Shown in pieces: positions 8,331 to 23,157 of a stretch of 64,000 bases of DNA. The notes below the pieces were generated by a model. The model was not told the origin of the DNA. It did no database searches and saw nothing but the letters and a program-made list of their open reading frames with translations. This DNA is from a plasmid. The stretch lies in the NCBI RefSeq assembly GCF_054482525.1, contig NZ_JBTHVG010000003.1. One strand, 5' to 3'. Numbering within the stretch: position 1 is the first letter of the stretch; each line of letters opens with the position of its first letter. Both the position numbers and the translations under genes were made by a program.

Positions 8331-9203
8331 ATGTCTAAAAATAAAGCTCGCAGTAAAGCCCTTCATCAAACCTTTAGTGAAATTATTCCAGAGATGGATA
8401 AGGCGCTAAACAAACAGCTCTTAGAAGTTCTGATGAAATATACAGAACGTGATAATGAACTGATTGTTATTTTGAATGAGGACGGCCCAAATATCATTGA
8501 ACTTAAGTCTCTTAAGCCTGTGTCGTTGTTGGCCGAAAAGCTTTCTGCTTATTCAAGCTATTATCATGTGGATGTTGTGGAGCTCGTGGTCAAGAAAATT
8601 GATTTCGAAGGAGCTTATAAGCTTCTTAAAGCTTCCCCAGATGTACCACTTTTTAAAAGCTTAACTGAACTGGATAAATATCTTGTTGAGGAGTTTGAAA
8701 AATACGGATTAAATTCATTTCTTGACGTGGATAATCTGGATTACTCACTTGAAAAAGCCAGTGAACTCAAAAATGAGCAGTTAATAAATTGGGTTTCGGA
8801 CATCATTTGCAAACGTGAAAAATTAACTTTACGTAAGCGTTTTGATGTCGCAGTAAAGGCCCACTACGAAAATGTAGAAAAAATGTATGATACCATTCGT
8901 CCGTTAATGAAAAAACTGGGTTTCCCAGAAGATCTCATGACGCACACCTTTAGTGAGTTAAGCGTTTTTGAAACTAAAGGATGGGACCATGCAATAAAAT
9001 CGAAAATTGAGACTCTCGCTAAGCGTGAAACTCAATATTTAGATGATGCGGCTAAAGCAGAGAATCGACGTCTTGTAACAGAGAAGTTGGAGAACTCTTT
9101 AGCGATTGCACCAACTAAACCAACAAGAAATTGGTTACATATTGCCGGAATTGCCTGTTTGGTAGTCTGCACGTTCATGTATGTAACTAATAAATTTATT
9201 TAA
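8331..9203 (+). CDS. Hypothetical protein with C-terminal membrane anchor
   Basis: 290-aa ORF, AT-rich codon usage, C-terminal hydrophobic helix WLHIAGIACLVVCTFMYV; no recognised motif. Confidence 0.5.
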   Translation: MSKNKARSKALHQTFSEIIPEMDKALNKQLLEVLMKYTERDNELIVILNEDGPNIIELKSLKPVSLLAEKLSAYSSYYHVDVVELVVKKIDFEGAYKLLKASPDVPLFKSLTELDKYLVEEFEKYGLNSFLDVDNLDYSLEKASELKNEQLINWVSDIICKREKLTLRKRFDVAVKAHYENVEKMYDTIRPLMKKLGFPEDLMTHTFSELSVFETKGWDHAIKSKIETLAKRETQYLDDAAKAENRRLVTEKLENSLAIAPTKPTRNWLHIAGIACLVVCTFMYVTNKFI

Positions 9204-9260
9204 TCCTGTTAAGGGGGAACCCTAACGGGGCTTCTCTTTGAACAAATCGAGGAGCGGAAA

Positions 9261-9638
9261 ATGTCATATCTTGAATATATCAATGAAGTAAAAGTGTCCG
9301 GGATAGTTATCAGTGCTGTGGAGAAAAAAATGACTGACCAGAGTATAGGTTTGTTAATAAAGCTCAAAAATAGGATGAAGACAGAAGTTGATGGTGAAAT
9401 CACTGAGAGAGAATTTTCAGTTCAAATCAAGGTGTCGCCTGAAATGTATTCAACCTGTTTCACTGGTATAAATCAGGGTGATGAGTTGATGGTCTCCGGT
9501 TATATTGTTGTCGATACTATTATGATTGAAGGGAGAGAACATCCTCTTGACTACATGAGAGTGGTAGCAACAAGTAAGTTGGCTCACATACCTAAACCTC
9601 TAAAAGGTTTTGGACAAAGTAGCTTTAATCAGATCTGA
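9261..9638 (+). CDS. Hypothetical protein, possible OB-fold ssDNA-binding-like
   Basis: 125 aa with GAGGAG RBS; beta-rich pattern loosely resembling SSB/PriB. Weak assignment. Confidence 0.4.
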   Translation: MSYLEYINEVKVSGIVISAVEKKMTDQSIGLLIKLKNRMKTEVDGEITEREFSVQIKVSPEMYSTCFTGINQGDELMVSGYIVVDTIMIEGREHPLDYMRVVATSKLAHIPKPLKGFGQSSFNQI

Positions 9639-9658
9639 CATTAAACCCACCCTAAAGG

Positions 9659-9689
9659 GGAGAAATCCCTTCATGGGATTTCTCCTTTT
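9659..9689 (+). terminator. Intrinsic terminator-like hairpin
   Basis: GGAGAAATCCC-TTCAT-GGGATTTCTCC perfect 11-bp stem followed by TTTT; lies between ORFs 9261..9638 and 9699..10676. Confidence 0.6.
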
Positions 9690-9698
9690 GGAGTCCCC

Positions 9699-10676
9699 AT
9701 GAAACAAAAATTTAGGGCTACTGCAATAAGTAGTAATCAACTTAGTTTTTTTTCTATACTCGATATAGATGAAGATGAAATAACGCAAATAGTTGATTCA
9801 CCCAAAGAGCATTTAAATGATGCTTACACGTCCGGATTAAACTTTAAATCAGAAGAAAGTAACATTTCTGAGATAAATTATGATTCTGAAAGGCGTGAAA
9901 ATCACCTTTATGAAAAATCCAAATTACTTAAAAATCAGATTTTGCATACAATTAATTTTGCAGCAGAAACAGATTATCTATATACGGTTGAAGAATATAA
10001 CCCAGATTTGGGTGGTCTGGTAATAGAATGGACCCCTGAGGATGTGTATGTTGTTTTTCTATCCGCTATGGAAGAGTCTTTGGAAATCATTAAAGAACTA
10101 GTGTTGAGGAGAAAGTTATTCTTCAAAGATGACAATGGTAATATCACAGTGAATCCACTTTTAGAAGCTGAAACACGGTGGTATATGTCAAAATCATTTG
10201 AATACACTTGTTTATGTCATGGACTTGATGCATGTGAATTTAGAGCGGAATTAAAATCATGGCTCTATTATCATTCGCATCGTTCGATTAGTGAAAACAC
10301 GAAATTAGCTGAATGCAGGAATGATGATGAAATCATTTTGCATGATTGCAATGACGATATGGGCTGGGACATCTTCTTTGATCAGGATTATTTAATGTCA
10401 GAAAAAAAACTGGCTGTTAAATGGACTGACAGGGAAATTATGGATGTTTACATAAAAGCTTTTAAATCCACATTAGAGTTGTTTGACGAGCTTGTTTCAT
10501 GTGATCTGTTAACTAAACGAAACGCTTTTGGCAAGTTAGAAATCAATCCAATATTCGAAAATCATTTTGAATGGATCATGTCTGAAGCTTTTGAAATAGT
10601 GGGAAATCATCTTGGTTATAATGTGCCTCAAATCAGGAAACTGATGGCAACTATTTGCCAAATGAATCTCAAATAA
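9699..10676 (+). CDS. Hypothetical protein
   Basis: 325-aa ORF, GGAG RBS, no recognised motif. Confidence 0.5.
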   Translation: MKQKFRATAISSNQLSFFSILDIDEDEITQIVDSPKEHLNDAYTSGLNFKSEESNISEINYDSERRENHLYEKSKLLKNQILHTINFAAETDYLYTVEEYNPDLGGLVIEWTPEDVYVVFLSAMEESLEIIKELVLRRKLFFKDDNGNITVNPLLEAETRWYMSKSFEYTCLCHGLDACEFRAELKSWLYYHSHRSISENTKLAECRNDDEIILHDCNDDMGWDIFFDQDYLMSEKKLAVKWTDREIMDVYIKAFKSTLELFDELVSCDLLTKRNAFGKLEINPIFENHFEWIMSEAFEIVGNHLGYNVPQIRKLMATICQMNLK

Positions 10677-10733
10677 AATGCCACTGGCAAACATCTGCCA
10701 GAGGGCGGTGTTTGCATTTTACCGGAGTTAAAA

Positions 10734-11792
10734 ATGTCTAATGCCGCTATGAAGTTAAATGAAACATCTTCTGATGCTTATGAAAAATTAGAAGCTCTTC
10801 TTTCCCCGGATGTTATAAAGTTAAAACATTATGTGGATAAAGGTGAGTATCTTTTAGTTCTAGCAAAGGACCTTTTTGGTATTCCAGAAATGGATCCAAA
10901 GATGGCTGTGCCTGTTTTCAAAACTAAAACCTCGTATCGAGCTCCGCTGAACAAAGACTACATACCAAATCCCCGAATACTTGAACAAGTGGTTAAACTG
11001 CTTATCAGTCCGGATATAGATTTAAGTGTGTGTCTTAAAGGTGAGTCCGGTTCTGGCAAGACTGAAATGGTAATGTACATTAGCCACATGATGAATTGGC
11101 CGCTGACAATTAAGCAGATCAACAGCAATATTCGAGTTGATGAGCTTGAAGGTGAGCGCAGTCTTAATGGTGGTAATACAGGTTTTGTACACAGCGATTT
11201 GGTAACGGGATTTCGTAATGGTCACCTCATTCTTCTGGATGAAGTGGACAAAATCGATCCTGATACGGCAGCAAAACTTCACATGCCCATTGAACGTAAG
11301 CCCTGGTCACTCAGTGCTAATGGTGGTGAGGTTATAACTGCTAATGGCTACACGCGATTTATTGGTACTGCAAACACAAACATGAGTGGAGGCGCTCGCC
11401 GGTTCGTTTCTTCTCAACGTCAAGATGCAGCTTTTATAAAGCGGTTCTTGATAGTTGAAATGGAGAAGCCCGACAAAGTTGCTTTAACCAATGTGCTTAC
11501 TAAACGATATAGCTCTTTGCCTTTTCAGGTCATTGAGAAGTTCGTAAGAGTAGCGATTGCAGTAAATGACTCTGGTACAGAAGACAGTGTGATGGATATT
11601 CGTCAATTAGTAGCTTGGGTTGGCACGTCGATGACGTTAAAAACCTTTAGTCTTCTTGACACTTTCAAAATAGCTTTTGCTTCTGCTTTACCTTTACATG
11701 TGGTCGATCTTGTTCTTCAAGCTATAGATCTTTCTCTTGGCGAAGACAAGGATAAATCGCTGGAGTATTTCACAGCAAAAAAGTCGAGTTAG
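10734..11792 (+). CDS. AAA+ ATPase, CobS-like/MoxR-like
   Basis: Walker A GESGSGKTEM, Walker B LILLDEVDK, about 350 aa as in the CobS-like ATPases of conjugative elements and phages. Confidence 0.8.
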   Translation: MSNAAMKLNETSSDAYEKLEALLSPDVIKLKHYVDKGEYLLVLAKDLFGIPEMDPKMAVPVFKTKTSYRAPLNKDYIPNPRILEQVVKLLISPDIDLSVCLKGESGSGKTEMVMYISHMMNWPLTIKQINSNIRVDELEGERSLNGGNTGFVHSDLVTGFRNGHLILLDEVDKIDPDTAAKLHMPIERKPWSLSANGGEVITANGYTRFIGTANTNMSGGARRFVSSQRQDAAFIKRFLIVEMEKPDKVALTNVLTKRYSSLPFQVIEKFVRVAIAVNDSGTEDSVMDIRQLVAWVGTSMTLKTFSLLDTFKIAFASALPLHVVDLVLQAIDLSLGEDKDKSLEYFTAKKSS

Positions 11793-12109
11793 ATGGGATT
11801 TGTTATGAAACCTCTGATATTTGTATCTCAGAGTTATCCCATCTTGAATTTAGTGCGTTTTTAAGTACGGATGGTGCTGCTACCATTGCTATAGCAAAAA
11901 ACGGAACTAATTTTACTGGACTTATGCAACTGAATAACGACTATTCTTTATTGTTTTATCATGATGGTAAAATAAATATGGAAGGTCTGATTAAACAAAT
12001 GGAATTAAAAGGTTATATGTATCAGGGAGCAATGGGCAATGATGATGTTGTTGCTGAGTTTCCCGGTATTCTTTTAATTTCACCAGAGAAGCTTTAATAT
12101 CAACCCTAT

Positions 12110-12150
12110 CGGGAAATCTTTCCCGTTGGGGAGGGTTTCCCCTTTTTTTT
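12110..12150 (+). terminator. Tandem hairpins with T8 tract
   Basis: CGGGA-AATCTT-TCCCG then GGGG-AGGGTTT-CCCC followed by TTTTTTTT, immediately before the GGAG RBS of the next gene. Confidence 0.6.
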
Positions 12151-12160
12151 GGAGAAACCC

Positions 12161-13288
12161 ATGACTTTAAATACTTCAATGCTTAACAAAGTATCTGCAA
12201 AACAAATCTCTGAGAATTTTGCAAAATCATATCCAGATTTACTGGAAGGTGCAGTTATAACAAAAATTGAAATAAGTGGCTGTCAAGGATCGCGTCGAAC
12301 CGATAAAATCGATTTGTCTTATGATGGAGATGATATTACGGATCAAAAAAGCGTATCTAAAAGCGAAGTACGCTGGATTGACATAAAAGCCCTTAGCTTC
12401 AAAAGTACGATTACCAGCAGAATATCAACTCTTTGCTCACGCTTGTGCATCCGCTATAGCAATATGTGGATTTTACCAGTATCCAGTATGGAAGAGTTTC
12501 TGGAAGGGGCCCAAGAGATTGAACGAGAGTTTCAGGCAGGTATTCAAAACGTTGTAGACAATTATGAGATGCATATTGAGGCTGAAAAAAATAGAAGCCC
12601 AAGAATGTCTTCTTTGATTGATCAGTTGAAATTAACTAAAGATGATTTCATAAAATCCTTTAGATTTAATATTGCTCACTTTATTCCTTTTACGCCTATT
12701 AGCGTTGAAGGTGATGAAACCCAGGACTACTATCAGGAACAATTGATAACAGATCTGGCAGAAGAAGCAATGAAGGTTTATGAAAAAATTAGCAAAAATA
12801 ACAATTTGCGCTCAAGTACTATTGACCGACTGAAGCAAATGCAAAATAAGATCATTAGCTTCATGTTTATACATAAAGAGGCGGCAGTACTTGCAGAAGC
12901 TATAAAACACATAATGAATAATTTACCTAAAGGTGCCATTTCTGAACCTCGCGACGTTGCGGTGTTACAGCAGTGGTTTTATTTCATGAGTGATGCTTCA
13001 ATGTTAAAGCGTATTATTTCAGGAGAGCAAAAGGTTACTGACTGGTTGGAATCTATTACCAGATCATTTAATCAAAGCTCACAAACAGAACCGAACGCGC
13101 TACAGAACACAGGTATTGAAGCTATTTTAGATTCAACAAATGTGTTCCAGGTTGAACCTGTCGTAGAGAACGATATAAATAACAGCACGTTTTCAAACAC
13201 TGATCCTGTAGCTGAACCTGAGAAATCAGTTTCGCAACAGGAAGACAATGTTGAAAATGGTTTTGATATCGAGCTCAAAGGCTGGTAA
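12161..13288 (+). CDS. Hypothetical protein (between the AAA+ and vWA genes)
   Basis: Start moved to the ATG at 12161 with a GGAG RBS (the ORF-track TTG start at 12149 lies inside the terminator T-tract); no recognised motif. Confidence 0.5.
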   Translation: MTLNTSMLNKVSAKQISENFAKSYPDLLEGAVITKIEISGCQGSRRTDKIDLSYDGDDITDQKSVSKSEVRWIDIKALSFKSTITSRISTLCSRLCIRYSNMWILPVSSMEEFLEGAQEIEREFQAGIQNVVDNYEMHIEAEKNRSPRMSSLIDQLKLTKDDFIKSFRFNIAHFIPFTPISVEGDETQDYYQEQLITDLAEEAMKVYEKISKNNNLRSSTIDRLKQMQNKIISFMFIHKEAAVLAEAIKHIMNNLPKGAISEPRDVAVLQQWFYFMSDASMLKRIISGEQKVTDWLESITRSFNQSSQTEPNALQNTGIEAILDSTNVFQVEPVVENDINNSTFSNTDPVAEPEKSVSQQEDNVENGFDIELKGW

Positions 13289-13308: not shown

Positions 13309-13350
13309 CCCAGATGGGTACTTCACCATCTGGGTGAGTACCCCTTTTTT
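13309..13350 (+). terminator. Terminator-like element with two mutually exclusive stems
   Basis: CCCAGATGG / CCATCTGGG stem overlaps an alternative GGGTAC / GTACCC stem, followed by T6. Confidence 0.55.
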
Positions 13351-13365
13351 ATAAAGAGGTATTCT

Positions 13366-15378
13366 ATGAAATTAGATCTTAAATCATCACCGCGCCATAT
13401 TAAGCGTTTACAGAATATAGCAAAAGTCATTAGCGGCTTAGGCGATGTAAGAGTTGTAATAGACGACAATACCAAAGGACCGTATTTTGATCCTGTAAAT
13501 AAAGTTTGTGTTTTACCAAACGGCGATTATAGCGATGATGACTTTGTCAGTCTGATTGAAGGTTTTACCTGTCATGAAGCTGGTCATGGTCGCTATACCG
13601 ACAGCGAGGTTTACAGTGACGCCTTTAATAGTGTTCTCAAGTCATCTGAAGGGTTTACACGCTTCGATGACGGAATGAATGCAGAGTTTGAGAGCCTCGC
13701 TGAGAAACGTAAAGCTTATAGCAGGGCAAAACGTCTTACCGGGCTTATAAATCTGTTCGATGATGTACAGATGGAAGAGAAGGTTGGTAACGATTATCCG
13801 GATGCAAAGCGGCGGCTTGCAGCCACTTACGCACTGATGGTTAAAGCCGGAAGGATGACTCCTGATATATCTTCTCGTCCGGAAAATCCTGTCCTATTTA
13901 TTGAGTGGTATCTGCTTAACTCATTGCGAGTAAAAGTCCTTCAGCAGGCAGGTCACAAAGAAACACTCGATCCGTTTTTTGACTATGCCCAAAAGATACT
14001 TTCTCCAGTAATTTCTGATGTTGAGGAAATTTTTCATGATGCTCTTGGTTGTGAAAATACTCAGGGCTGTGAATCCCTTGCTCGTAAGACCCTGGCTCTT
14101 TTAGAGAGACTGCGGGATGAGGCAAGGGAACAACAGCAGCAGACAGAGCAGGAGGAGCAGGAGGCATATGATGAATCCGAGACCGATACCGATACCGATA
14201 CCGAATCAGAAGATAAATCGCTTGAGTCGACTGATAGTCGTGAGGATGATTCTGAGGACGATAGTGAAGGTCAGGCAGATACTTCCGATAACTCTGATCT
14301 TGCTCAAGAGGGATGTTCTGAGCCTTCAGAACTTGCTGAAGATAACGAGGGAAATAATGAACCCACCGGTGGCAATCCCACAGGTGATAACATTATTGAA
14401 GACGATACTGATGCGATTAACCCTTCCGAGAGTGAATCAGATGAAGCCAGTTCGACTAACGTTGAAGATGAAAGTAACTTTTCATCGGCTCAATGGGAGA
14501 TACTGGCAGATTTGTTGGATGCCTTTCTTGGCAGTGATGAGGATAGCGAAGATTATCACGATGCTTTGGCTAAAGAGATTGAAGGTATTGCATCAAAAGT
14601 ATCCGATGACGTGAAAGCCGAATTCGGTGCTTCTGAATGGGATATCCCTGATCTCCTTATCGATTTGAATGTTTACAATGAGGCTTTGTCTCTGAGTCAT
14701 TCAATCGGTAGCGACTTGTCTGTTTTACAGCAGGTTAAAATGCGTGGCCGAAACAAAACTCATGAGCGTGGAATTACCTTCGATGGAAATCGATTAATTC
14801 TGTCACCAATGGGAGTTCGTGATGTCTTCAGAGCTCAAAGCGAATCTAAAAATAGAGGGCATGTTGGCCTCGTATTAGTTCGTGATATTTCAGCGTCAAT
14901 GGCTAATGATGAAAGATATATTCATGCCATTAAGTCAGATCTTGCTTTATCGATGGCCGCTGAAAGTTTGTCAAAAATGCATGTCTCCAATATAGTCTTT
15001 CCCTTCAAGGAAAGTGAATTTGAGATTATCAAAACGTTTGATCAAAGCGTTGAGGAATCTCTATCGAAATTCACTCTTGGATGTAAGGGTTATTATACCC
15101 CTACGGGATCGGCTTTAATGGCAGCTGTTGATCTGTTACTTGACAGCCAATTCGATAGGAAAATAATTTTTCTTATAACTGATGGTTATCCGAATAAATC
15201 GGAATTTACTATCGGCGAAGTTATGGAAAAGGCTAAGTGTAATGGAATAGAAATCGTTGGTGTTGGTATTAAGACTGATGAAATAATTGGTTTTGAAACG
15301 GACACTTTCGTAACAGTTGATGATACTTCTTTATTGTCTATTGAAGTCAGTAAGCTAGTTCATCAAATACTTTCTTAA
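13366..15378 (+). CDS. von Willebrand factor A protein with acidic linker, CobT-like
   Basis: C-terminal vWA with MIDAS motif (LVLVRDISASM, later ITDG); long D/E/S/T-rich low-complexity middle region; AAGAGG RBS; downstream of the CobS-like ATPase. Confidence 0.75.
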   Translation: MKLDLKSSPRHIKRLQNIAKVISGLGDVRVVIDDNTKGPYFDPVNKVCVLPNGDYSDDDFVSLIEGFTCHEAGHGRYTDSEVYSDAFNSVLKSSEGFTRFDDGMNAEFESLAEKRKAYSRAKRLTGLINLFDDVQMEEKVGNDYPDAKRRLAATYALMVKAGRMTPDISSRPENPVLFIEWYLLNSLRVKVLQQAGHKETLDPFFDYAQKILSPVISDVEEIFHDALGCENTQGCESLARKTLALLERLRDEAREQQQQTEQEEQEAYDESETDTDTDTESEDKSLESTDSREDDSEDDSEGQADTSDNSDLAQEGCSEPSELAEDNEGNNEPTGGNPTGDNIIEDDTDAINPSESESDEASSTNVEDESNFSSAQWEILADLLDAFLGSDEDSEDYHDALAKEIEGIASKVSDDVKAEFGASEWDIPDLLIDLNVYNEALSLSHSIGSDLSVLQQVKMRGRNKTHERGITFDGNRLILSPMGVRDVFRAQSESKNRGHVGLVLVRDISASMANDERYIHAIKSDLALSMAAESLSKMHVSNIVFPFKESEFEIIKTFDQSVEESLSKFTLGCKGYYTPTGSALMAAVDLLLDSQFDRKIIFLITDGYPNKSEFTIGEVMEKAKCNGIEIVGVGIKTDEIIGFETDTFVTVDDTSLLSIEVSKLVHQILS

Positions 15379-15393
15379 TAAACTCTACCCAAT

Positions 15394-15422
15394 CGGGGCA
15401 AAAGGCCCCGGTGGGTCTTTTT
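15394..15422 (+). terminator. Terminator-like hairpin
   Basis: CGGGGC-AAAAG-GCCCCG stem, T5 tract a few nt downstream. Confidence 0.5.
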
Positions 15423-15449
15423 GCTCCATGAAGGAATAAGGAGCAAAAT

Positions 15450-15671: not shown

Positions 15672-15676
15672 ATGTT

Positions 15677-15700
15677 GAGGGCCCCCGGGCCCTCTTTCTT
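15677..15700 (+). terminator. Terminator-like hairpin
   Basis: GAGGGCCC-CCG-GGCCCTC followed by a T-rich run. Confidence 0.55.
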
Positions 15701-15784
15701 AAATTCTGCGTTGTGGGTTTCTCCCTGTCTTCTGCACCGCAGAAGGCATTGAGAAACTCACAATGCCAGATAAGAGAGATCATC

Positions 15785-17017: not shown

Positions 17018-17028
17018 CAACGATAACT

Positions 17029-17060
17029 CCCCCGCTTTTTGCGGGGGGGGTTATCTTATC
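17029..17060 (+). terminator. Rho-independent terminator after primase
   Basis: CCCCCGC-TTTTT-GCGGGGG stem (G8 run) followed by a T-rich stretch. Confidence 0.6.
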
Positions 17061-17287
17061 AATATTATATTTTAAAATTGTATTGATAAGATAACCGCTT
17101 TCCTTCGTGATAATTACCTGCCTTTAAGGTCTTTTCACGGCTGAGATGCTTGCTCAGTTAAATAAATGTGCGGTACTACTGGCTATGGTCGGTTGTATGA
17201 CATGGTTATTCCATAAACTATTAAAACCCATAACGGGAGTATTACCGTTATGGTGATGCTCGTCGTTTTACATCGGAGAGCATTTTA

Positions 17288-17809
17288 ATGAATTTTCAAA
17301 TTAACGAAGTTTTTAATAAATTTGCTGCTGTTATAAAATCGCGCATCGTCAATGAACCATCGTCATGCTATTTGCTGCATGATAATGAGATAGATATAAC
17401 GATTTTGAAACATAGCATATTAGAAAATGACAGAAACCTGTTGTACGTAGTTCGTCCTTCAGGAACGTGTTTGTTGCGTTGTGACAAATATTTCTATCCG
17501 AAATATTATCTTCGTTGCCGTGGAGATTATAAGTCATTCATATATGTCCATCTTGATCTACATAGTGGTGAAGCTAAAGAAATCACATGGGAGCAAGCAG
17601 ACGATATGCTGTCTAGTCCAGGAAAACCCCCATTAAAAGGGAATCTTGGACGATTTGAGTATATAAAAGTTGTGGTTGAGGACCTTCGTATTCGAGGTTA
17701 CGCTGATTATCTTCCTGCGTATAATCTTGATGACCTTCGCCGTTTTGCCTTACAGGACGACCGCCCATCCCTTGTCAGATACATTGACAATGTCATGGCA
17801 ACGGTCTGA
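17288..17809 (+). CDS. Hypothetical protein
   Basis: 173-aa ORF, AT-rich, no recognised motif. Confidence 0.45.
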   Translation: MNFQINEVFNKFAAVIKSRIVNEPSSCYLLHDNEIDITILKHSILENDRNLLYVVRPSGTCLLRCDKYFYPKYYLRCRGDYKSFIYVHLDLHSGEAKEITWEQADDMLSSPGKPPLKGNLGRFEYIKVVVEDLRIRGYADYLPAYNLDDLRRFALQDDRPSLVRYIDNVMATV

Positions 17810-17887
17810 TTGATTGCTAATTGATTTACATATTTTCCCTGATGGCCAACCTGCATCAGGGAGGCCTCAATAACGAATGGAGGCTGT

Positions 17888-18766
17888 ATGAAGTTAGCTA
17901 CGGACCTGGTAAAAGCTATTTTGATTAGAAATGGCGTTGAACCAGTAAATATAAGCGAATCATCTAAGTTATCTTTGAAACAACCACTGACAGAACTTAA
18001 ATTCAGTTTATATTTGCGAACTGAGCATTTATCTCACTTCCTACCCGGTTATGTTTATTCTATAAAAGAATGTCCACTGTCATATGACATCGGGATCGAA
18101 ATTCAGAAAATCTTCGAAAGTTTACATTTGTTAAACGAAGAATTTGAATCCCTCGGTTTTGTTTCTGTATGGATAGAAATGCATCAAAGCATTTTTGAAC
18201 AAAGTCGGTTTAAGAAAAGTAACTTTACTTTTCGGGAGGAAGAGGTCGAGCTTGCTAAAGGGCTTGTTTGTTCTCACAATTCACAAATAAGTAATGCGGC
18301 TTATTTCTGGCTTCAGCACTTTGAGGAGTTTATGATTTATGTTCGTAATAAGCTTATCGACCTCTTTCGAGAGGCCTATGACCTGATCCTTGGAATGCAG
18401 CAAGTATTTTTCATTCGGGAAAAGGAAGAGCTGTTGAAAACTATAAGTTATGGCGATGAGCTGTATGAGGTGAAATTCATGGCGGCTGAGCTTTACTCTA
18501 TCGAACAGAACTTAAAGTGTTCTGAATCGATAAGTACAAAATCTCAAGCTTCGGCATATATTAACCGCATCCGTGAGTTTGTGCGTTCGGGGTGGAGGCA
18601 GGGCTATATAGTCTGCCATCATAAGCGAAGTAATCAAATTTCATCATTGTCATTACCGATGTACTTGAAAGATACGTCAGGCCGAAGTGCTCGAAAGCGA
18701 GTAAAACGTCTTATATCTTCTACAGTTTGTGGTAGAAATAAAGATTTAGGTCTTACAGATTTTTAA
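17888..18766 (+). CDS. Hypothetical protein, first of a run of about 300-aa ORFs
   Basis: 292 aa, GGAGG RBS, preceded by the hairpin CCCTGATG...CATCAGGG at 17837-17861. Confidence 0.5.
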   Translation: MKLATDLVKAILIRNGVEPVNISESSKLSLKQPLTELKFSLYLRTEHLSHFLPGYVYSIKECPLSYDIGIEIQKIFESLHLLNEEFESLGFVSVWIEMHQSIFEQSRFKKSNFTFREEEVELAKGLVCSHNSQISNAAYFWLQHFEEFMIYVRNKLIDLFREAYDLILGMQQVFFIREKEELLKTISYGDELYEVKFMAAELYSIEQNLKCSESISTKSQASAYINRIREFVRSGWRQGYIVCHHKRSNQISSLSLPMYLKDTSGRSARKRVKRLISSTVCGRNKDLGLTDF

Positions 18767-18784
18767 TTAAATTATACCCATGTG

Positions 18785-18820
18785 GGGATCACACCCCATA
18801 TGGGAGTGATCCCTTTTTTT
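18785..18820 (+). terminator. Terminator hairpin with T7
   Basis: GGGATCAC...GTGATCCC stem (loop ACCCCATATGGGA) followed by TTTTTTT. Confidence 0.6.
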
Positions 18821-18836
18821 ATTGAGAGAGGATCAC

Positions 18837-19772
18837 ATGAAAATTATCGAAAAAATCATTAATGCCTTTTTGGTTGTTCAACATAAAAAAATACAGGTTA
18901 AAAACATTACATTTTTAGACAATGGGCAGGGCATGTTCTCTGGTATGTCTTTTGATGCTGATGTTTCACTGGAGTTTATGTATGAATCAGCAAAAGCATA
19001 TAGTTCTTGTTTCTGTGATATTCCCTTTCCAGGTTTTGAAGATGCAAATCTGGAGGAAATTACGAAATTTCAATTAGATGCTTTGAAGCAAAGAAAGAAT
19101 CATTCTTTCTTTGTTAACCATTTGAGGTTTCCTATAGTTTTAAGGGAAGGGTGCAAAATCGAAAGAGGAGAAGTCTATTCAATTTCGAATTGCACTTATA
19201 ATAAAGAAAGATTGCAGTATCTTTTTTCTCAGGATATTTACGGTAAGTTGTATAATTCCTTAGAGAAAGAATTAAGCTCGTTTTTCTCATTTATCAATGT
19301 TGAGGTGCACGAGTTGTTAAAAGATGCTGTATGCTTTGCATTAAAAATCCTGAATAAGATATCTTTGGATACACCTGAAAGACTTATTAAAGCTTTTAAT
19401 TATCGTGACTGGTATTGTAGTTACGATGTTGAGCTTTTTAGGAAAGGCTTACCTGGTCATATTCTGGAAGAGCTCATTGCTCCAGATATCTTACTTTCAG
19501 ACCTTAACGGTTGTAGAAAAATACTTAGAAATGCAAAACGATTTCTAAATGGACATACACAAACCAATTGTGTTTATATTAAATATGAATGGTGGTTGGG
19601 GCCTGTTGATACCTCACACTCAGCTAAGTTGATGTCTGACAAAGAAATTAATAACCGAAGTGACTTGAAGAATTTTTCAAAGGTCTTTTTCAAAGAGTGT
19701 TTAAGTTCTGGTAAGTCGGAATATGAAAACCATCTTAGTGAAAAAGAACATGCGCTTCGCTATAATTATTAA
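18837..19772 (+). CDS. Hypothetical protein
   Basis: Start moved to the ATG at 18837 with an AGAGAGG RBS; about 311 aa. Confidence 0.5.
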   Translation: MKIIEKIINAFLVVQHKKIQVKNITFLDNGQGMFSGMSFDADVSLEFMYESAKAYSSCFCDIPFPGFEDANLEEITKFQLDALKQRKNHSFFVNHLRFPIVLREGCKIERGEVYSISNCTYNKERLQYLFSQDIYGKLYNSLEKELSSFFSFINVEVHELLKDAVCFALKILNKISLDTPERLIKAFNYRDWYCSYDVELFRKGLPGHILEELIAPDILLSDLNGCRKILRNAKRFLNGHTQTNCVYIKYEWWLGPVDTSHSAKLMSDKEINNRSDLKNFSKVFFKECLSSGKSEYENHLSEKEHALRYNY

Positions 19773-19840
19773 TTAAAATTATTTTCTCCCATAGGGATTT
19801 CTCCCTATGGGAGAAATCCCTCTATTAAGAGGGTATTGAA

Positions 19841-20761
19841 ATGAATGCTATACAAAAGTTAGTTGAATCTATTCTTGTTAAAATGGGTTTTGTTGGCGCT
19901 GTAGTGGAAAATATATATTTGGATTCAAAACCATTTCGGCATATTCGATTTGTGGCTGATATTCCAGTAATATCTTTTCTACCTCATTTGGTGAAATATC
20001 TTAAGGGTGCAGACCATCTTTACAGTGGTAACGATGATTTGCATCCTCTTTTCATTTATTTTTCCGAAGCGGCTACATTAAAAGCAGGTCCTGTAAATCT
20101 CGCGAACTTTCGTTTTGAAGTTTCTATAGCTTCAACTCATTTACGACTGGTCTCAGAGCAGCCTGATTTGCTTTTCAAAGGATTTAACCGGGATAATCTA
20201 GAATACGTTTATTACCGCTCAGATTTGGCCTCTAAGGATCTTATACTAGGCCTTGTTGAACACGGTTCTCCTTTCATAAAACATCTACATGGACTTATAC
20301 AAAAGCGAATTTTAAACGAGTTCTCTCTGATTTTTTCTGTTCTTGAAAAGATTTTAGAAAGCGCGAAGCCACAAATTCTTGCTTGCTTCCATAGTGTTGA
20401 TTATGAAATGAACGTAAAAATAATAGCCGAAGCTATACCTGAAACTGTATCTAATCAGATAGTCACATCTGATTATATAGTTAATTCTATATCAGATGCG
20501 GACAAGTTTATAAATCATGTTCGTCGCTATTTAGCAGGCAGGGTAATGAAGAGGCGGATATACGCTGAATTAGATGTTTGTGAAGAAACATCAAGTATTT
20601 CACTAGTGAACTTAGGATGCTTTACGTCTCCTCTGCTCGTTACGGAATATCAAATGTTTAAGCCACACTCTTCAGGGTTATATCGAAAAGCTATAAACAA
20701 CTCCTTAAAACAGTTCAAACCAGAAATGCATGTACCTTCTGAAGAACTCTTTTATAATTAA
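19841..20761 (+). CDS. Hypothetical protein
   Basis: 306 aa; preceded by the composite palindrome at 19783-19820. Confidence 0.5.
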   Translation: MNAIQKLVESILVKMGFVGAVVENIYLDSKPFRHIRFVADIPVISFLPHLVKYLKGADHLYSGNDDLHPLFIYFSEAATLKAGPVNLANFRFEVSIASTHLRLVSEQPDLLFKGFNRDNLEYVYYRSDLASKDLILGLVEHGSPFIKHLHGLIQKRILNEFSLIFSVLEKILESAKPQILACFHSVDYEMNVKIIAEAIPETVSNQIVTSDYIVNSISDADKFINHVRRYLAGRVMKRRIYAELDVCEETSSISLVNLGCFTSPLLVTEYQMFKPHSSGLYRKAINNSLKQFKPEMHVPSEELFYN

Positions 20762-20827
20762 TCTAACCCATCCGGGAACCTGCTTCCCGGTGGGAAGCAC
20801 TTCCTTTTTAGTCATGAGGTAGTGTAA

Positions 20828-21766
20828 ATGTTTAAAGAATCTGACCACGTGGAATTTGTTAGTGCCTTTCTTTATCAAAATTTAGGCCTTAATGTTTCCG
20901 CTGACGATATAACCGTTCAATTATCTGATACTTCGTTCGACAAAGTAACCTTTGATTACGATGTAGATATCGATAATTTAAATTGTATGTTGGATCTCTA
21001 CATATCTGAGCTAATAAAGCACAACGCATCTTACTCCGATTCTATTCTTTTGAAACAAAAAATAATTTATTTTCTTGGAGTATTTAAGAATTTCGGATTT
21101 TTTACGTTTGATATTCGCGGATATAGTAATACTTTAAGCCCAGTTAAAGTTATTGATATTGTTTCAATGATTATTAATGACTGTGAAGAGTTATCTAAAG
21201 CTAATTCTTCTACTGATGCTATAAGAAATCTTTATCTCGATAAAATGAAGGTGGATGGGAAAGTGTTAGTTGCGAAATTTGCACTTAAACAGTTTTTTCA
21301 TTCCGACTTTGGTGACTTTATCTCATTTGTCGAGAAAAGAATTACAGATTGTCTTAATGAAACTTTAAGGATTATCAAAGCTGTTGAACATGGCTTTGTA
21401 CGTGTAGGGCAGCATAAGATTAATCGCCGTATTAATGATGACTTAAAGTTATGCATTGATTTCAATACTGATGATTATCCGGCAAATATGCCAGATATAT
21501 ATATTAAGTTTAACGATACATTTGATGGGAACGGGGCGTTATATTGTGACAATGATGCCCTCATATCCCTCTATACCGATGTTGCTTCAATTATCAATGT
21601 GCCGGTGATGATGGAAGTAAGATTGATCAATAAAAGAGGGCGTGTTGTCTGTGATTCTTCGCATTCAACTTACGTATCTCTCGAAAGTAATGACCGATAC
21701 AGAGTAACTGATCGCACATTACTAATAACTGAAGCTTTTGACGATTTTCGTAACGCGTCTCAATGA
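20828..21766 (+). CDS. Hypothetical protein, tandem paralog A
   Basis: 312 aa; shares blocks with the next ORF (VDGKVLVAKFALKQF vs VDGQVMIARFALQQF; C-terminal ...VCDSSHSTYVSLESNDRYRVTDR vs ...VTDLCHTVYVSELTGGRIKIHDR); its upstream leader is also duplicated. Confidence 0.55.
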   Translation: MFKESDHVEFVSAFLYQNLGLNVSADDITVQLSDTSFDKVTFDYDVDIDNLNCMLDLYISELIKHNASYSDSILLKQKIIYFLGVFKNFGFFTFDIRGYSNTLSPVKVIDIVSMIINDCEELSKANSSTDAIRNLYLDKMKVDGKVLVAKFALKQFFHSDFGDFISFVEKRITDCLNETLRIIKAVEHGFVRVGQHKINRRINDDLKLCIDFNTDDYPANMPDIYIKFNDTFDGNGALYCDNDALISLYTDVASIINVPVMMEVRLINKRGRVVCDSSHSTYVSLESNDRYRVTDRTLLITEAFDDFRNASQ

Positions 21767-21937
21767 TCCTTTTGCTTCAGTCCAAAAAAGTAACTTTGGT
21801 TGGCTGAAGACACTTGTCTATGACAATGTAAAATCTGTCGCTGGCATCTTCTTTTAGCTTAACCAAATTTTTATCTAACCCAGTGGGGAAGTCGCTTCCC
21901 TTCTGGGGCACTTCCTCTCAAATTCGAGGTAGTGTAT

Positions 21938-22894
21938 ATGACACATTCATCTGATGATAAAAACTATGTCCGAGCAGTTCTGAGTTATCTTGGCATAGAT
22001 TTTGATGAGGCGGATATAGTATTAAGTGTTTGCCATTGTCAAAGTGACGAGCTTTCTTTTACCTGTAATATCAAAGCTATTGAACTCAAGAATGTTGTTG
22101 ATTTATATGTCGATAGTATCTCTGAGAATGAAATAGAAGCTTTAAACAGAGAATCTTTAAAATCGCGACTCTGTTACTTTCTTGAGGTGTTTGACGCAGT
22201 CTCTGGTCAGTACCTTGAAATTTCAGGAAAACACTTTGCAACTAGTCGTTTTGAATATGATGATGTTTGTAGTGAAGTTCTTAGCATGTCTAATGATGTT
22301 TCTCAGTCGAAAGGTTATGACCGGGATGAATATAACAGACTGATGCAGGTTGATGGTCAGGTTATGATTGCCCGTTTTGCTTTGCAACAGTTCTGGGATA
22401 CTCATTTTATTGGACTAATAACATTTGTATCTGAGTCTATAACATCGAGCCTCTATAAAGCTTATGAAACTTTTAGTGATATTAGTTTGGCTTGCTATAA
22501 ACTGAGTGAATATTCTTATTCACGCTCTATCAACAGTGAATTGACCCTTAATATTTCACTTAAAGAAAATGACTTCTGTGAGGACCTATCTGATTGCTAT
22601 ATGGAAGATGAGGCTTTACCTTCTGGTAGGGTAATTTCTCGACGCAACAATGACTCCATAATAAGTATTTATGAGAGCTATGCTGCGGCTTCTTATATTC
22701 CGATGATTGCATCTTTGGAAGTCGTTGATGAATACGGCGAAGTGGTTACTGACCTCTGCCATACCGTTTATGTTTCAGAGTTAACCGGTGGGCGGATTAA
22801 AATCCACGACCGTAATGACTTAGTATCTGAAGTTTTCGATAACCTAAGAAATTTAAATCTTGCAGTTGGAGATTCAGTTTCACAAGCTGCTTGA
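21938..22894 (+). CDS. Hypothetical protein, tandem paralog B
   Basis: Start moved to the ATG at 21938 so that the leader GAGGTAGTGTATATG matches paralog A's GAGGTAGTGTAAATG; about 318 aa. Confidence 0.55.
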   Translation: MTHSSDDKNYVRAVLSYLGIDFDEADIVLSVCHCQSDELSFTCNIKAIELKNVVDLYVDSISENEIEALNRESLKSRLCYFLEVFDAVSGQYLEISGKHFATSRFEYDDVCSEVLSMSNDVSQSKGYDRDEYNRLMQVDGQVMIARFALQQFWDTHFIGLITFVSESITSSLYKAYETFSDISLACYKLSEYSYSRSINSELTLNISLKENDFCEDLSDCYMEDEALPSGRVISRRNNDSIISIYESYAAASYIPMIASLEVVDEYGEVVTDLCHTVYVSELTGGRIKIHDRNDLVSEVFDNLRNLNLAVGDSVSQAA

Positions 22895-22933
22895 TTCTTT
22901 CCCTGATTTTGATTTTTTCTCACATACTCTTAT

Positions 22934-22958
22934 GGCACGGTTTCCGTGCCTTTTTTTT
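22934..22958 (+). terminator. Rho-independent terminator closing the paralog block
   Basis: GGCACGG-TTT-CCGTGCC followed by T8. Confidence 0.7.
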
Positions 22959-23157
22959 GCCTCGCTTACAAGCGTCTACTCCTCTTCTACCTATCCCACC
23001 TTACATCACCACTTAAAATCTATCTTTCTAATTCCATTATCCTTTTCGTAGCCTCTAATGCTCTGGTATGAACATACTCTTTAAACTCAAAAAAGTGCTA
23101 TTAACGAAAAAAAATCCCTAAAGAGATTTGTATACTGTTCTCAACCAAGGAGAGCTC

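What the first reader, a model, noticed from the sequence alone, without database searches (positions are those of the whole stretch)
9200..22960. GC-rich palindromic hairpins punctuate almost every gene of an AT-rich block, some with mutually exclusive stems and shared arms
From about 9.2 to 23 kb nearly every intergenic gap carries a GC-rich stem-loop 25-45 nt upstream of the next RBS (9659-9689, 12110-12150, 13309-13350, 15394-15422, 15677-15700, 17029-17060, 17837-17861, 18785-18820, 19783-19820, 20772-20809, 21886-21900, 22934-22958). The arms GGGAGAAATCCC / GGGATTTCTCC occur at both 9.66 kb and 19.8 kb. At 19783-19820 and 13309-13343 two overlapping stems compete, for example a 14-bp stem TTTCTCCCATAGGG/CCCTATGGGAGAAA against a 12-bp stem GGGATTTCTCCC/GGGAGAAATCCC. 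This looks like a dispersed family of structured elements, which could be per-gene terminators, attenuators, RNA-processing sites or hairpin promoters active on transferred single-stranded DNA.
Basis: seen in the sequence. Interest (0 to 1): 0.55.

Follow-up and report, generated by a model that had tools for sequence, protein, structure and literature searches.

The report
Two-state RNA gates before each gene
Twelve consecutive genes of a widespread IncHI resistance plasmid are each preceded by a conserved, apparently undescribed mRNA element that is predicted to hide the ribosome-binding site and can refold to expose it, so the hairpins look like translation gates rather than simple terminators.

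Summary
The window is IncHI2 plasmid backbone. In two co-directional operons (8.3-17.0 kb and 17.3-22.9 kb), 11 genes plus a primase-gene variant are each preceded by a 55-65 nt two-hairpin element.

- **H1** is a GC-rich hairpin clamped by (A)CCC(A)...(T)GGG.
- **H2** is a hairpin whose 3' arm is the Shine-Dalgarno sequence (SD) and ends 0-7 nt before the ATG.

The signature occurs 8 times in the block and nowhere else in the window. The other 175 kb of a reference plasmid gives only 3 unrelated matches. Ten lineages keep the architecture while the sequence turns over, down to 36% protein identity.

G.U pairs outnumber A.C mismatches 76 to 8, which points to sense-strand RNA. Opening the SD is predicted to cost 9.2 kcal/mol, against 4.2 for neighbouring genes.

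The anti-SD strand also pairs with an SD-like decoy inside H1. This gives two registers, one with the SD hidden and one with it free. Masking 5 nt at the 5' base of H1 lowers the SD-opening cost by about 4 kcal/mol.

Best reading: a cis-acting two-state translational gate. The trigger is unknown; a ribosome terminating on the upstream gene is my leading guess. U-tracts are inconsistent, so these are not primarily terminators. They are not ssDNA promoters. I found no Rfam match and no description in the literature searched.

The parts
9205..9263 (+). Element before the 125-aa SSB/PriB-like gene. H1 is 9205-9229, a degenerate clamp (CCTGTTAAGGG/CCCTAACGGG). H2 is 9230-9255 (GCTTCTC/GAGGAGC, sequestering the SD). 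ATG at 9261.
   Evidence: (z -3.6)
9645..9701 (+). Element before the 325-aa gene. Here the alternative hairpin GGAGAAATCCC/GGGATTTCTCC (9659-9686) is the MFE. The H2 register is GGGA..CTCC with GGAG.TCCC. ATG at 9699.
   Evidence: (z -2.8)
10681..10736 (+). Variant before the CobS-like AAA ATPase gene. Two competing stems (CTGGCA/TGCCAG versus GCAAACA/TGTTTGC), but the SD is not sequestered. Sequence conserved across lineages.
   Evidence: opening cost 1.8; z -1.8
12104..12163 (+). Element before the DUF3150 gene. H1 12104-12131, H2 12133-12160, T8 tract, ATG at 12161.
   Evidence: (z -3.9)
13309..13368 (+). Element before the CobT-like VWA gene. H1 13309-13334, H2 13336-13364, alternative stem GGGTACT/AGTACCC, ATG at 13366.
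   Evidence: (z -5.5)
15387..15452 (+). Element before the 73-aa gene. H1 15387-15416, H2 15419-15448 (TTTTGCTCC/GGAGCAAAA), decoy GGGGCAAAA in H1, ATG at 15450.
   Evidence: (z -5.0)
15677..15787 (+). Variant before the primase (toprim) gene. H1 is 15677-15694. The anti-SD CTCTTTCTTA pairs with TAAGAGAG. An 83-nt hairpin, nearly invariant in sequence across lineages (15696-15779), is inserted in the H2 loop. ATG at 15785.
   Evidence: (z -9.2)
17027..17055 (+). Canonical intrinsic terminator ending operon 1 (CTCCCCCGC/GCGGGGGGG). It is not a member of the family.
17228..17290 (+). Element in the 5' leader of the 173-aa gene, the first gene of operon 2. H1 17228-17253, H2 17255-17284, ATG at 17288.
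   Evidence: (z -5.2)
17836..17890 (+). Element before paralogue 1. H1 17836-17862, H2 17863-17885, ATG at 17888.
   Evidence: z -3.6
18777..18839 (+). Element before paralogue 2. H1 18777-18804, H2 18806-18836. Triple GGGATCAC / GTGATCCC / GGATCAC. T7 tract. ATG at 18837.
   Evidence: z -6.9
19783..19843 (+). Element before paralogue 3. H1 19783-19816 (15 bp), alternative 12-bp stem GGGATTTCTCCC/GGGAGAAATCCC, H2 19818-19833, ATG at 19841.
   Evidence: (z -6.3)
20767..20830 (+). Element before paralogue 4. H1 20767-20794, H2 20797-20825, ATG at 20828.
   Evidence: z -3.9
21879..21940 (+). Element before paralogue 5. H1 21879-21907, H2 21908-21935, ATG at 21938. The upstream stop codon is more than 100 nt away.
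   Evidence: z -6.2
22934..22958 (+). Canonical intrinsic terminator ending operon 2 (GGCACGG/CCGTGCC followed by T8). It is not a member of the family.

Best explanation
Each element is a cis-acting, two-state switch in the polycistronic mRNA that gates translation initiation of the cistron it precedes.

It reads as six alternating tracts: C1-G1-C2-G2-C3-G3.
- G3 is the real SD plus spacer.
- C3 is the anti-SD strand.
- G1 is a near-copy (decoy) of the SD region.

**OFF register.** C1:G2 and G1:C2 form the clamped hairpin H1. C3:G3 forms H2, so the SD is buried 0-7 nt from the ATG.

**ON register.** G1 captures C3, and C2:G2 forms a small apical hairpin. This gives one long, terminator-shaped hairpin and leaves C1 and the SD single-stranded.

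The chain is contiguous, so anything that occupies C1, about 50 nt upstream, is transmitted to the SD.

**Shown**
- The architecture, and its conservation with compensatory change.
- Selection on the sense strand.
- Gene-specific predicted SD sequestration.
- Specific complementarity between decoy and anti-SD.
- The predicted energetic coupling between C1 and the SD.

**Inferred**
- That the switch actually controls translation in vivo.
- The trigger. My leading guess is the ribosome terminating on the upstream cistron, whose footprint reaches C1 when the stop codon is no more than about 6-7 nt away, and only marginally at 8-10 nt. That would be a translational-coupling relay across a 57-80 nt gap. 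About 0.3 of the total belief rests on this.
- An alternative is a kinetic window, because the two registers are isoenergetic in nascent RNA before the SD arm is made.
- A bound protein or sRNA is a further alternative.
For: **H2 is universal and anchored to the start codon**
- All 11 window copies, and their orthologues in L002, L003, L005-L008 and L014-L017, fold as H1+H2 with the 3' arm of H2 on the SD.

**SD sequestration is specific to these genes**
- Opening cost is 9.2 kcal/mol for element genes against 4.2 for 23 other genes of the same plasmid region (Mann-Whitney p=5e-5).

**Structure is conserved while sequence changes**
- 14% of paired columns vary against 40% of unpaired columns. 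There are 14 compensatory and 21 one-sided pair-keeping changes.
- On the VWA-class alignment, H1 is 92.6% paired with 3 compensatory pairs. H1+H2 is 84% paired against 34-50% when partners are slid. The covariation score is 0.222 against 0.136 in shuffles (0 of 500 reach it).
- B':B'' (anti-SD with SD arm) is much better within a lineage than across lineages.

**Sense-strand RNA**
- 76 G.U pairs against 8 A.C mismatches. The plus strand is more stable in 71% of copies.

**Decoy**
- The anti-SD arm pairs with its own H1 5' half at about -9 to -11 kcal/mol, against about -5 to -6.7 for non-cognate copies.
- The permutation p-value is 0.0018 or lower in eight of nine lineages tested and 0.0097 in the ninth, L008.
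- In paralogue 2 the decoy, anti-SD and SD change together: GGGATCAC/GTGATCCC/GGATCAC in IncHI2 becomes GGGATTAC/GTAATCCC/GGATTAC in IncHI1.

**Bistability**
- Without the SD arm, the two registers differ by about 0-3 kcal/mol in most copies, though by 8-13 in the g325 class and a few others.

**Relay**
- Masking the first 5 nt of H1 lowers the cost of opening the SD arm from 8.6 to 4.5 kcal/mol (n=75 copies).
- Masking 8 nt just upstream changes it by -0.2.
- With the first 8 nt masked, the drop is 3.6 in native copies against 1.8 in chimeras with a non-cognate H1.
Against: - No experimental data exist. All energies are nearest-neighbour predictions.
- The alternative helix showed no covariation signal on the one MAFFT alignment tested. 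Within a gene class it co-evolves only weakly between lineages: -10.2 against -8.8 kcal/mol.
- After masking, the freed SD is sometimes predicted to re-pair with the U-tract.
- Against the ribosome trigger, the distance from the upstream stop codon to H1 is not conserved. In the window it is 1, 5, 6, 8, 10, 10, 20 and 26 nt, and more than 100 nt for two copies. It reaches 32-35 nt in the pNDM-MAR-type lineage.
- One copy sits in a 5' leader whose uORFs are not conserved.
- About 40-50% of copies carry a U-tract after the alternative hairpin, which fits a terminator as well.
Confidence: 0.6

Rival explanations
1. Transcription attenuators or partial intrinsic terminators. The alternative long hairpin followed by a U-tract terminates transcription, and H1 acts as an antiterminator. 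The result would be a graded or conditional fall in mRNA along the operons. SD pairing would be secondary.
For: - The consensus scan flags terminator-like sites at 12111, 15392, 15677 and 20781.
- T5-T8 tracts follow the alternative hairpin in 4 of 10 window copies and in some orthologues.
- H1 and the alternative hairpin are isoenergetic exactly at the stage when RNA polymerase would sit on the U-tract.
Against: - The U-tract is absent or interrupted in more than half of the copies, and is not conserved between orthologues. VWA, for example, reads CCCCTTTTTT in IncHI2 but CCCTTTATCAAAT in IncHI1.
- Position is anchored to the downstream ATG, not to the upstream stop codon.
- The strongest co-evolving pairing is anti-SD with SD.
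- The two operons end in separate, canonical terminators.
- This model does not explain why read-through transcripts would then have a buried SD.
Confidence: 0.15
2. A regulon controlled in trans or by temperature. A plasmid or host factor recognises the conserved clamp or H1 shape in all copies and flips or locks the switch. Candidates are the SSB/PriB-like protein encoded in the block, another RNA-binding protein, or an sRNA. Alternatively H2 acts as an RNA thermometer linked to the thermosensitive biology of IncHI plasmids. This differs from the best explanation only in the trigger.
For: - The only sequence features common to all copies are (A)CCC(A)/(T)GGG and the SD/anti-SD cores.
- Two copies lie far from any upstream ORF.
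- The block encodes an OB-fold SSB/PriB-like protein (Foldseek E 4e-6, TM 0.63-0.78). Phage ssDNA-binding proteins such as T4 gp32 and M13 gene V protein are known translational repressors (own knowledge).
- IncHI transfer is temperature-sensitive (PMC6764697).
Against: - No RNA-binding domain was found by Pfam, NCBIfam or PHROGs in the block proteins.
- The 73-aa protein has no significant structural match. Its best PDB hits are at E>0.1, and a faint resemblance to the PP7 coat protein is not significant.
- H1 loops differ in every copy, so they offer no common recognition loop.
- SD-opening cost is 7-11 kcal/mol at 37 C in most copies and changes by only 2-3 kcal/mol between 20 and 42 C. That is unlike known weak-helix thermometers.
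Confidence: 0.15
3. mRNA processing and stability punctuation. RNase E or RNase III cuts in or next to the AU-rich H2 loop. The upstream fragment then ends in a terminator-shaped protective hairpin, and the downstream fragment starts with a free SD.
For: - H2 loops are 4-15 nt, AU-rich and single-stranded.
- After such a cut, the decoy:anti-SD hairpin plus U-tail would mimic a natural 3' end.
- A homologous block in Aeromonas plasmid pAeme5 carries a different strand-specific intergenic repeat of C(UUCG)G hairpins, 20 copies on one strand and none on the other. That fits a general need for structured punctuation.
Against: - No cleavage data exist.
- The stems are shorter than the roughly 20 bp typical of RNase III substrates.
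- AU-richness of the loops is not distinguishable from the composition of the intergenic regions.
- This model does not by itself need the C1 clamp.
Confidence: 0.07
4. DNA-level elements. These would be hairpin promoters or primase/ssi sites on transferred single-stranded DNA, or selfish or neutral palindromic repeats of the REP/MITE type.
For: - The block encodes a primase, an SSB/PriB-like protein and a helicase.
- The clamp ACCCA...TGGGT is itself palindromic.
Against: - If oriT lies next to mobI, as in related MOBH elements, the block is about 115 kb from it.
- The elements occur only in this 13-kb block and not elsewhere on the 238-kb plasmid.
- G.U to A.C asymmetry is 76 to 8.
- Every copy ends on an SD a fixed distance from an ATG.
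- Sequences differ between copies while the structure is kept, which is not the pattern of recent transposition.
- There is no promoter enrichment.
Confidence: 0.03

Closest known systems
Translational coupling by unfolding of an inhibitory mRNA structure (for example MS2 coat-to-replicase/lysis, E. coli atp and ribosomal-protein operons; reviewed in PMC12548453 and modelled in PMC4538824)
   Same: The downstream ribosome-binding site is buried in a hairpin within a polycistronic mRNA. The proposed activation is by the ribosome translating the upstream cistron.
   Different: - In the known cases the terminating ribosome melts the inhibitory helix directly, at short distance.
- Here the SD hairpin lies 35-55 nt beyond the stop codon, and the signal would pass through a decoy-containing second hairpin.
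- The device is repeated at 11-12 consecutive cistrons and is conserved as a family.
- Coupling itself is untested.
ermC/cat-type translational attenuators (four-segment leaders; own knowledge)
   Same: - The ground state has two hairpins, and the second buries the SD.
- An alternative pairing involving the shared middle strands frees the SD.
- The trigger is a ribosome at the 5' segment.
   Different: - There is no conserved leader peptide.
- The alternative pairing is segment 1 with segment 3 (decoy with anti-SD), not 2 with 3.
- There is no antibiotic-stalling logic.
- The elements are intercistronic rather than in a single 5' leader.
Delayed-folding and metastable mRNA control: the MS2 maturation-protein gene and hok mRNA of plasmid R1 (own knowledge)
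   Same: The SD is closed at equilibrium. A competing local hairpin can hold the anti-SD strand transiently. Nascent and mature RNA differ in which structure is favoured.
   Different: - Those are single-copy leaders that rely on long-range pairing.
- Here the module is compact, about 60 nt, and is reiterated before each cistron.
- Folding kinetics were not simulated.
Intrinsic (Rho-independent) terminators and classical attenuators
   Same: A GC-rich hairpin is followed by a U-tract in some copies. An antiterminator-like competing stem is present.
   Different: The U-tract is inconsistent and not conserved. The elements lie inside operons, are anchored to the next start codon, and have the SD as a pairing partner.
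REP/BIME intercistronic palindromes and phage T7 RNase III sites or T4-type PeSL cassettes (own knowledge)
   Same: Reiterated structured elements lie between genes of one transcription unit.
   Different: - There is no sequence similarity and no genome-wide spread.
- There is no associated promoter.
- The stems are too short for canonical RNase III sites.
- Pairing with the SD is not a feature of those families.

Membership tests
Intrinsic terminator | Stable GC-rich hairpin | tested here: met
   H1 is -13 to -25 kcal/mol in the window (weaker, -5 to -8, in a few g125/g325/g73 copies of other lineages). The alternative hairpin is -13 to -23 kcal/mol in most copies.
Intrinsic terminator | U-tract immediately 3' of the hairpin, conserved in orthologues | tested here: not met
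   At least 5 T in 8 follows the alternative hairpin in 4 of 10 window copies, and in 2/11, 5/9, 3/6, 2/4 and 1/5 copies in other lineages. The tract differs between orthologues.
Intrinsic terminator | Generates transcript 3' ends in vivo | not testable with these tools
   No Term-seq or RNA-seq data are accessible.
SD-sequestering translational attenuator or riboregulator (generic class) | SD and/or start codon base-paired in the most stable structure | tested here: met
   All 11 copies, and the orthologues in ten lineages, meet this. Opening cost is 9.2 against 4.2 kcal/mol for control genes.
SD-sequestering translational attenuator or riboregulator (generic class) | Pairing maintained by compensatory evolution | tested here: met
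   B':B'' is -11.5 to -13.5 kcal/mol within a lineage against -6.6 to -10.5 across lineages.
SD-sequestering translational attenuator or riboregulator (generic class) | Alternative conformation that frees the SD | tested here: met
   Decoy:anti-SD complementarity is specific to cognate copies. Masking C1 lowers the SD-opening cost by about 4 kcal/mol. This is a prediction only.
SD-sequestering translational attenuator or riboregulator (generic class) | Measured effect on translation | not testable with these tools
   Needs reporter fusions or toeprinting.
ermC-type leader-peptide attenuator | Conserved short leader ORF overlapping segment 1 | tested here: not met
   A mini-ORF starting in the 3' arm of H1 was read by eye. 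It is not conserved in start codon, frame or stop. uORFs in the g173 leader are also not conserved.
RNA thermometer (ROSE / fourU type) | Weak, imperfect SD helix that melts between about 30 and 42 C | tested here: not met
   Opening cost is 7-11 kcal/mol at 37 C in most copies and falls by only 2-3 kcal/mol from 20 to 42 C.
ssDNA promoter (Frpo) / ssi site of plasmid leading regions | Located in the leading region next to oriT | tested here: not met
   mobI and the MobH relaxase lie at 171-176 kb of NZ_CP036178, and the block at 40-55 kb. oriT itself was not located. Its position next to mobI is taken from related MOBH elements (own knowledge).
ssDNA promoter (Frpo) / ssi site of plasmid leading regions | Long hairpin carrying -35 and -10 boxes in the stem | tested here: not met
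   The stems are 9-15 bp. Promoter-like sites are not enriched.
REP/BIME or MITE-like repeats | Conserved repeat sequence dispersed over the replicon | tested here: not met
   Copies share only CCC/GGG tracts. They are confined to one 13-kb block.
Any Rfam family | Covariance-model match | tested here: not met
   cmscan of the whole window at E<=1 found nothing in 9-23 kb.

The most novel reading that the evidence does not exclude
The elements are a purpose-built long-range translational-coupling relay. A six-tract RNA 'shift register' (C1-G1-C2-G2-C3-G3) transmits occupancy of its 5' end, by the ribosome terminating on the upstream gene, over about 50 nt to the SD of the next gene. It is reiterated at twelve cistrons, so two plasmid operons encoding ssDNA-handling and unknown proteins would be translated as a chain. 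Expression of each gene would be licensed by the one before it. This would be a new class of modular cis-regulatory RNA in clinically important IncHI plasmids.
Probability: 0.25. Interest if true: 0.75.

Novelty: new variant of a known kind. Interest (0 to 1): 0.58.

Why it matters
IncHI1 and IncHI2 plasmids carry multidrug, typhoid-associated and mcr-1 colistin resistance. This backbone block is present in about 2,000 sequenced plasmids, and the function and regulation of most of its genes are unknown.

If the elements gate translation, they define a post-transcriptional regulon. That regulon covers a putative ssDNA-processing set (SSB/PriB-like protein, CobS/CobT-like pair, DUF3150, primase) and a five-member paralogue family.

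For RNA biology the family offers 75 or more natural variants of one compact bistable design. An SD decoy and a GC clamp couple a site about 50 nt upstream to the ribosome-binding site. That makes the design directly testable, and it could be reused as a coupling or insulation part in synthetic operons.

It also warns annotators that GC hairpins with T-runs inside operons are not necessarily terminators.

Tried and rejected
- **Rfam.** cmscan of the whole window at E<=1 found nothing in the block.
- **ops/RfaH antitermination signal.** No match above chance.
- **H-type pseudoknot (H1 loop with the anti-SD strand).** Rejected on geometry. Only 0-2 nt would have to span a 9-15 bp stem, so the pairings are mutually exclusive. 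This is reasoning.
- **Mini-ORF starting at the NTG in the 3' arm of H1.** ATG, GTG, TTG and CTG, and also non-start codons, occur at that position. Frame and stop are not conserved. The T is explained by the CCCA:TGGG clamp (read by eye).
- **Conserved uORF in the g173 leader.** Not conserved across nine lineages.
- **RNA thermometer.** The helices are too stable and depend only weakly on temperature.
- **CsrA-type GGA-in-loop sites.** The GGA motifs lie in stems, not loops (inspection).
- **All-copy MAFFT alignment plus RNAalifold.** It recovered only the CCC:GGG clamp because the registers differ. I therefore built no covariance model and used alignment-free cognate versus non-cognate tests and per-class alignments instead.
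- **The search for related loci on genome contigs.** Only two loci were returned. More lineages came from the search for homologous proteins and the look-up of encoding contigs.
- **L004 (pKAM622_2, 94% identity).** Discarded as an error-rich assembly with frameshifted genes.
- **Literature.** Searches on IncHI stem-loops, R27 transcriptomes, Frpo/leading regions, anti-SD intercistronic hairpins and RNA thermometers in conjugative plasmids found no description of these elements.
- **Block proteins.** Pfam, NCBIfam and PHROGs found no RNA-binding domain. The fold search of the 73-aa protein was not significant.

Full report
**What the window is**

The region 9200-22960 is 100% identical to IncHI2 (R478-type) plasmids of Salmonella, E. 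coli and Enterobacter. About 1,100 records carry it at 99% identity or more.

In the annotated plasmid NZ_CP036178 the block lies directly after the Tra2 genes trhN and trhI. All its genes are on one strand:
- a 290-aa protein and a 125-aa protein;
- a 325-aa protein;
- a CobS-like AAA ATPase;
- a 57-aa ORF;
- DUF3150;
- a CobT-like VWA protein;
- a 73-aa protein;
- a toprim primase;
- a 173-aa protein;
- five tandem paralogues of about 300 aa.

Canonical terminators at 17027 and 22934 split this into two operons. mobI and the MobH relaxase lie at 171-176 kb of that record, about 115 kb from the block. oriT itself was not located. If it lies next to mobI, as in related MOBH elements (own knowledge), this is not the leading region.

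**The observation**

The GC-rich hairpin is only the first half of a two-hairpin element.

- H1 is a 9-15 bp hairpin. Its base is almost always (A)CCC(A) paired with (T)GGG, and it holds a second GGG:CCC step inside.
- After 0-4 nt comes H2. Its 5' arm is C/T-rich, and its 3' arm is the SD and spacer of the next gene.
- H2 ends 0-7 nt before the ATG.

Eleven genes have this layout, with start codons at 9261, 9699, 12161, 13366, 15450, 17288, 17888, 18837, 19841, 20828 and 21938.

The primase gene has the same layout, with an 83-nt conserved hairpin inserted in the H2 loop. The AAA-ATPase gene has a different pair of competing stems and a free SD.

The signature CCC-N3-5-GGG-N3-12-CC-N3-6-GGG occurs 8 times on the plus strand, all in the block. 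Shuffles give 0.65. The other 175 kb of the plasmid gives three unrelated hits. Folding z-scores run from -2.8 to -6.9. The shared arms at 9.66 and 19.8 kb are exact.

**Conservation**

Syntenic blocks were recovered from several lineages:
- IncHI1A pMAK1 (L002);
- an IncHI1B-type Citrobacter plasmid (L003, with L007);
- the pNDM-MAR-type Klebsiella lineage (L005, L006, L008; DUF3150 36-38% identical);
- four further lineages from public assemblies (L014 68%, L015 66%, L016 55%, L017 45%).

In every lineage the orthologous intergenic regions fold as H1+H2 on the SD, although the sequences differ.

Within the two best-sampled groups, 14% of paired columns vary against 40% of unpaired columns. 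There are 14 compensatory and 21 one-sided pair-keeping changes. Most of the 40 'broken' pairs come from MAFFT register shifts.

On the nine-lineage VWA-class alignment:
- H1 is 92.6% paired, with three compensatory pairs;
- H1+H2 is 84% paired against 34-50% when partners are slid;
- the covariation score is 0.222 against 0.136 in shuffles, and none of 500 shuffles reaches it.

G.U pairs (76) far outnumber A.C mismatches (8). The plus strand is the more stable in 71% of copies. Selection therefore acts on the sense strand, that is, on the mRNA.

**What the structure does to the ribosome-binding site**

The predicted cost of making the -14..-5 region single-stranded is 9.2 kcal/mol for the eleven element genes. 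It is 4.2 kcal/mol for 23 other genes in the same 38 kb (p=5e-5). It falls by only 2-3 kcal/mol between 20 and 42 C.

**The second register**

The anti-SD arm of H2 (B') is also complementary to the inner 5' arm and loop of its own H1 (B). B is therefore a near-copy of the real SD region (B'').

- Cognate B:B' duplexes average about -9 to -11 kcal/mol, against about -5 to -6.7 for non-cognate pairs within the same plasmid.
- The permutation p-value is 0.0018 or lower in eight of nine lineages tested and 0.0097 in the ninth (L008).
- In paralogue 2 all three change together: GGGATCAC/GTGATCCC/GGATCAC in IncHI2 becomes GGGATTAC/GTAATCCC/GGATTAC in IncHI1.

In this register C2 and G2 form a small apical hairpin. 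This explains why each half of H1 is itself CCC-N4-GGG.

In a transcript that ends just before B'', H1 and the long B:B' hairpin lie within about 0-3 kcal/mol in most copies, and the long hairpin is the MFE in several. In the g325 class and a few other copies the gap is 8-13 kcal/mol. Once B'' exists, H1+H2 wins by about 8-12 kcal/mol.

The element is thus a chain C1-G1-C2-G2-C3-G3(SD) with an OFF register and an ON register. In the ON register C1 and the SD are both free.

Masking only the first 5 nt of H1 lowers the cost of opening the SD arm from 8.6 to 4.5 kcal/mol over 75 distinct copies. Masking 8 nt just upstream has no effect (-0.2). With the first 8 nt masked, the drop is 3.6 in native copies and 1.8 in chimeras with a non-cognate H1.

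The evidence for selection on the ON register is weaker than for H1 and H2. The single alignment-based test was inconclusive. Co-evolution between lineages within a gene class is modest.

**How it most likely works**

The supported part is that these are cis-acting mRNA elements that sequester each cistron's SD and contain a built-in competitor that can release it.

The trigger is inferred. A ribosome stopped at the upstream stop codon protects roughly 9-10 nt beyond that codon (established toeprint geometry, own knowledge).
- In 3 of 8 window copies with a nearby upstream ORF, the stop lies 1-6 nt from H1.
- In 3 more it lies 8-10 nt away.
- In the other two it lies 20 and 26 nt away.
- Two further copies are more than 100 nt from any upstream ORF.
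- uORFs in the one 5'-leader copy are not conserved.

I therefore put about 0.3 on a ribosome-actuated coupling relay. The rest of the 0.6 goes to the same switch driven kinetically, through the isoenergetic nascent state, or by a factor.

The terminator reading keeps 0.15. Four to five copies do have good T-tracts behind the alternative hairpin. However, the tract is not conserved, and the elements are anchored to the downstream ATG.

Processing sites, trans-factor or temperature control and DNA-level roles are discussed under the rival explanations.

**Comparison with known systems**

The logic resembles three known kinds of control: structure-mediated translational coupling, ermC-type attenuators, and the delayed-folding or metastable control of the MS2 maturation gene and hok mRNA.

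It differs in four ways:
- the pairing topology is decoy with anti-SD, that is, segment 1 with segment 3;
- there is no leader peptide;
- the module is compact;
- it is reiterated before twelve consecutive cistrons.

There is no Rfam family. No description turned up in the searched literature. I class it as a new variant of a known kind. The claim rests entirely on sequence analysis and thermodynamic prediction.

**Context noted along the way**

The 125-aa protein is an SSB/PriB-like OB fold. Together with the TrhI helicase and the primase, this makes the first operon look like an ssDNA-handling set.

The homologous block of Aeromonas plasmid pAeme5 has a different strand-specific intergenic repeat, CCTTCGGG, in 20 copies. 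Structured punctuation of this gene set may therefore be a recurrent solution.

Noticed in passing
window 15696-15779: An 83-nt hairpin just upstream of the primase (toprim) start is almost invariant in sequence on both arms across eight lineages whose proteins are only 36-80% identical. This piece alone matches about 570 Klebsiella IncHI3/HI5-type plasmids at 83%, with no annotation there. The conservation is at sequence level with no covariation, which suggests a protein-recognised RNA or DNA site. Possibilities are a primase ssi site or a translational operator.
   Followed up: partly
window 7934-8333: The 394-nt gap between trhI and the first gene of the block folds at -121.6 kcal/mol and is conserved in IncHI1. 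It probably holds the promoter and leader of operon 1, and possibly another regulatory RNA.
   Followed up: no
window 17049-17096: A perfect 17-bp inverted repeat (GGTTATCTTATCAATA...TATTGATAAGATAACC) abuts the operon-1 terminator. An equivalent palindrome sits at the same place in IncHI1. It looks like an operator for the operon-2 promoter.
   Followed up: no
window 9261-9638: The unannotated 125-aa protein is predicted (pLDDT 83.5) to be an SSB/PriB-like OB fold. Foldseek against PDB gives E 4e-6 and TM 0.63-0.78. Pfam finds nothing.
   Followed up: yes
window 15450-15671: The conserved 73-aa protein is predicted as a three-stranded sheet plus one helix (pLDDT 83.4) with no significant structural match. 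A faint, non-significant resemblance to the RNA-hairpin-binding PP7 coat protein (E 0.5) is only a lead.
   Followed up: partly
window 17888-22894: Five tandem paralogous genes of about 300 aa have no family match. Copy number varies between lineages: 5 in IncHI1/HI2 and L016, 4 in L014/L015, 2 in L017, and none in the pNDM-MAR type.
   Followed up: partly
window 10681-10736: The intergenic region before the AAA ATPase gene has its own pair of mutually exclusive stems (CTGGCA/TGCCAG versus GCAAACA/TGTTTGC). It is conserved at sequence level in all lineages but leaves the SD free.
   Followed up: partly
window 11790-11850: A further long hairpin (GATGGGAT...ATCCCATC enclosing CTCTGA...TCAGAG) follows the AAA ATPase stop codon. 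The small ORF after it (57 aa) is replaced by different small ORFs in other lineages.
   Followed up: no
L009 (Aeromonas media pAeme5) 6000-20000: The distantly homologous block (helicase, primase, AAA, DUF3150, VWA and more) carries a different intergenic repeat. Its units are of the form AATCCTTCGGGATATGACGCCTTCGGGCA, that is C(UUCG)G mini-hairpins. CCTTCGGG occurs 20 times on the coding strand and 0 times on the other, mostly just upstream of ribosome-binding sites.
   Followed up: partly
L005 11870-11890 / L006: A homopolymeric C tract lies just 5' of the DUF3150 element in the pNDM-MAR-type lineage. It is C11 in L005 and C9 in L006, and it is replaced in L008. This is a possible slippage-prone site.
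   Followed up: no
L004 (pKAM622_2, NZ_AP026394): The 94% identity of this IncHI2 record comes with many truncated or fused genes. It looks like an error-rich assembly rather than a true intermediate lineage.
   Followed up: partly
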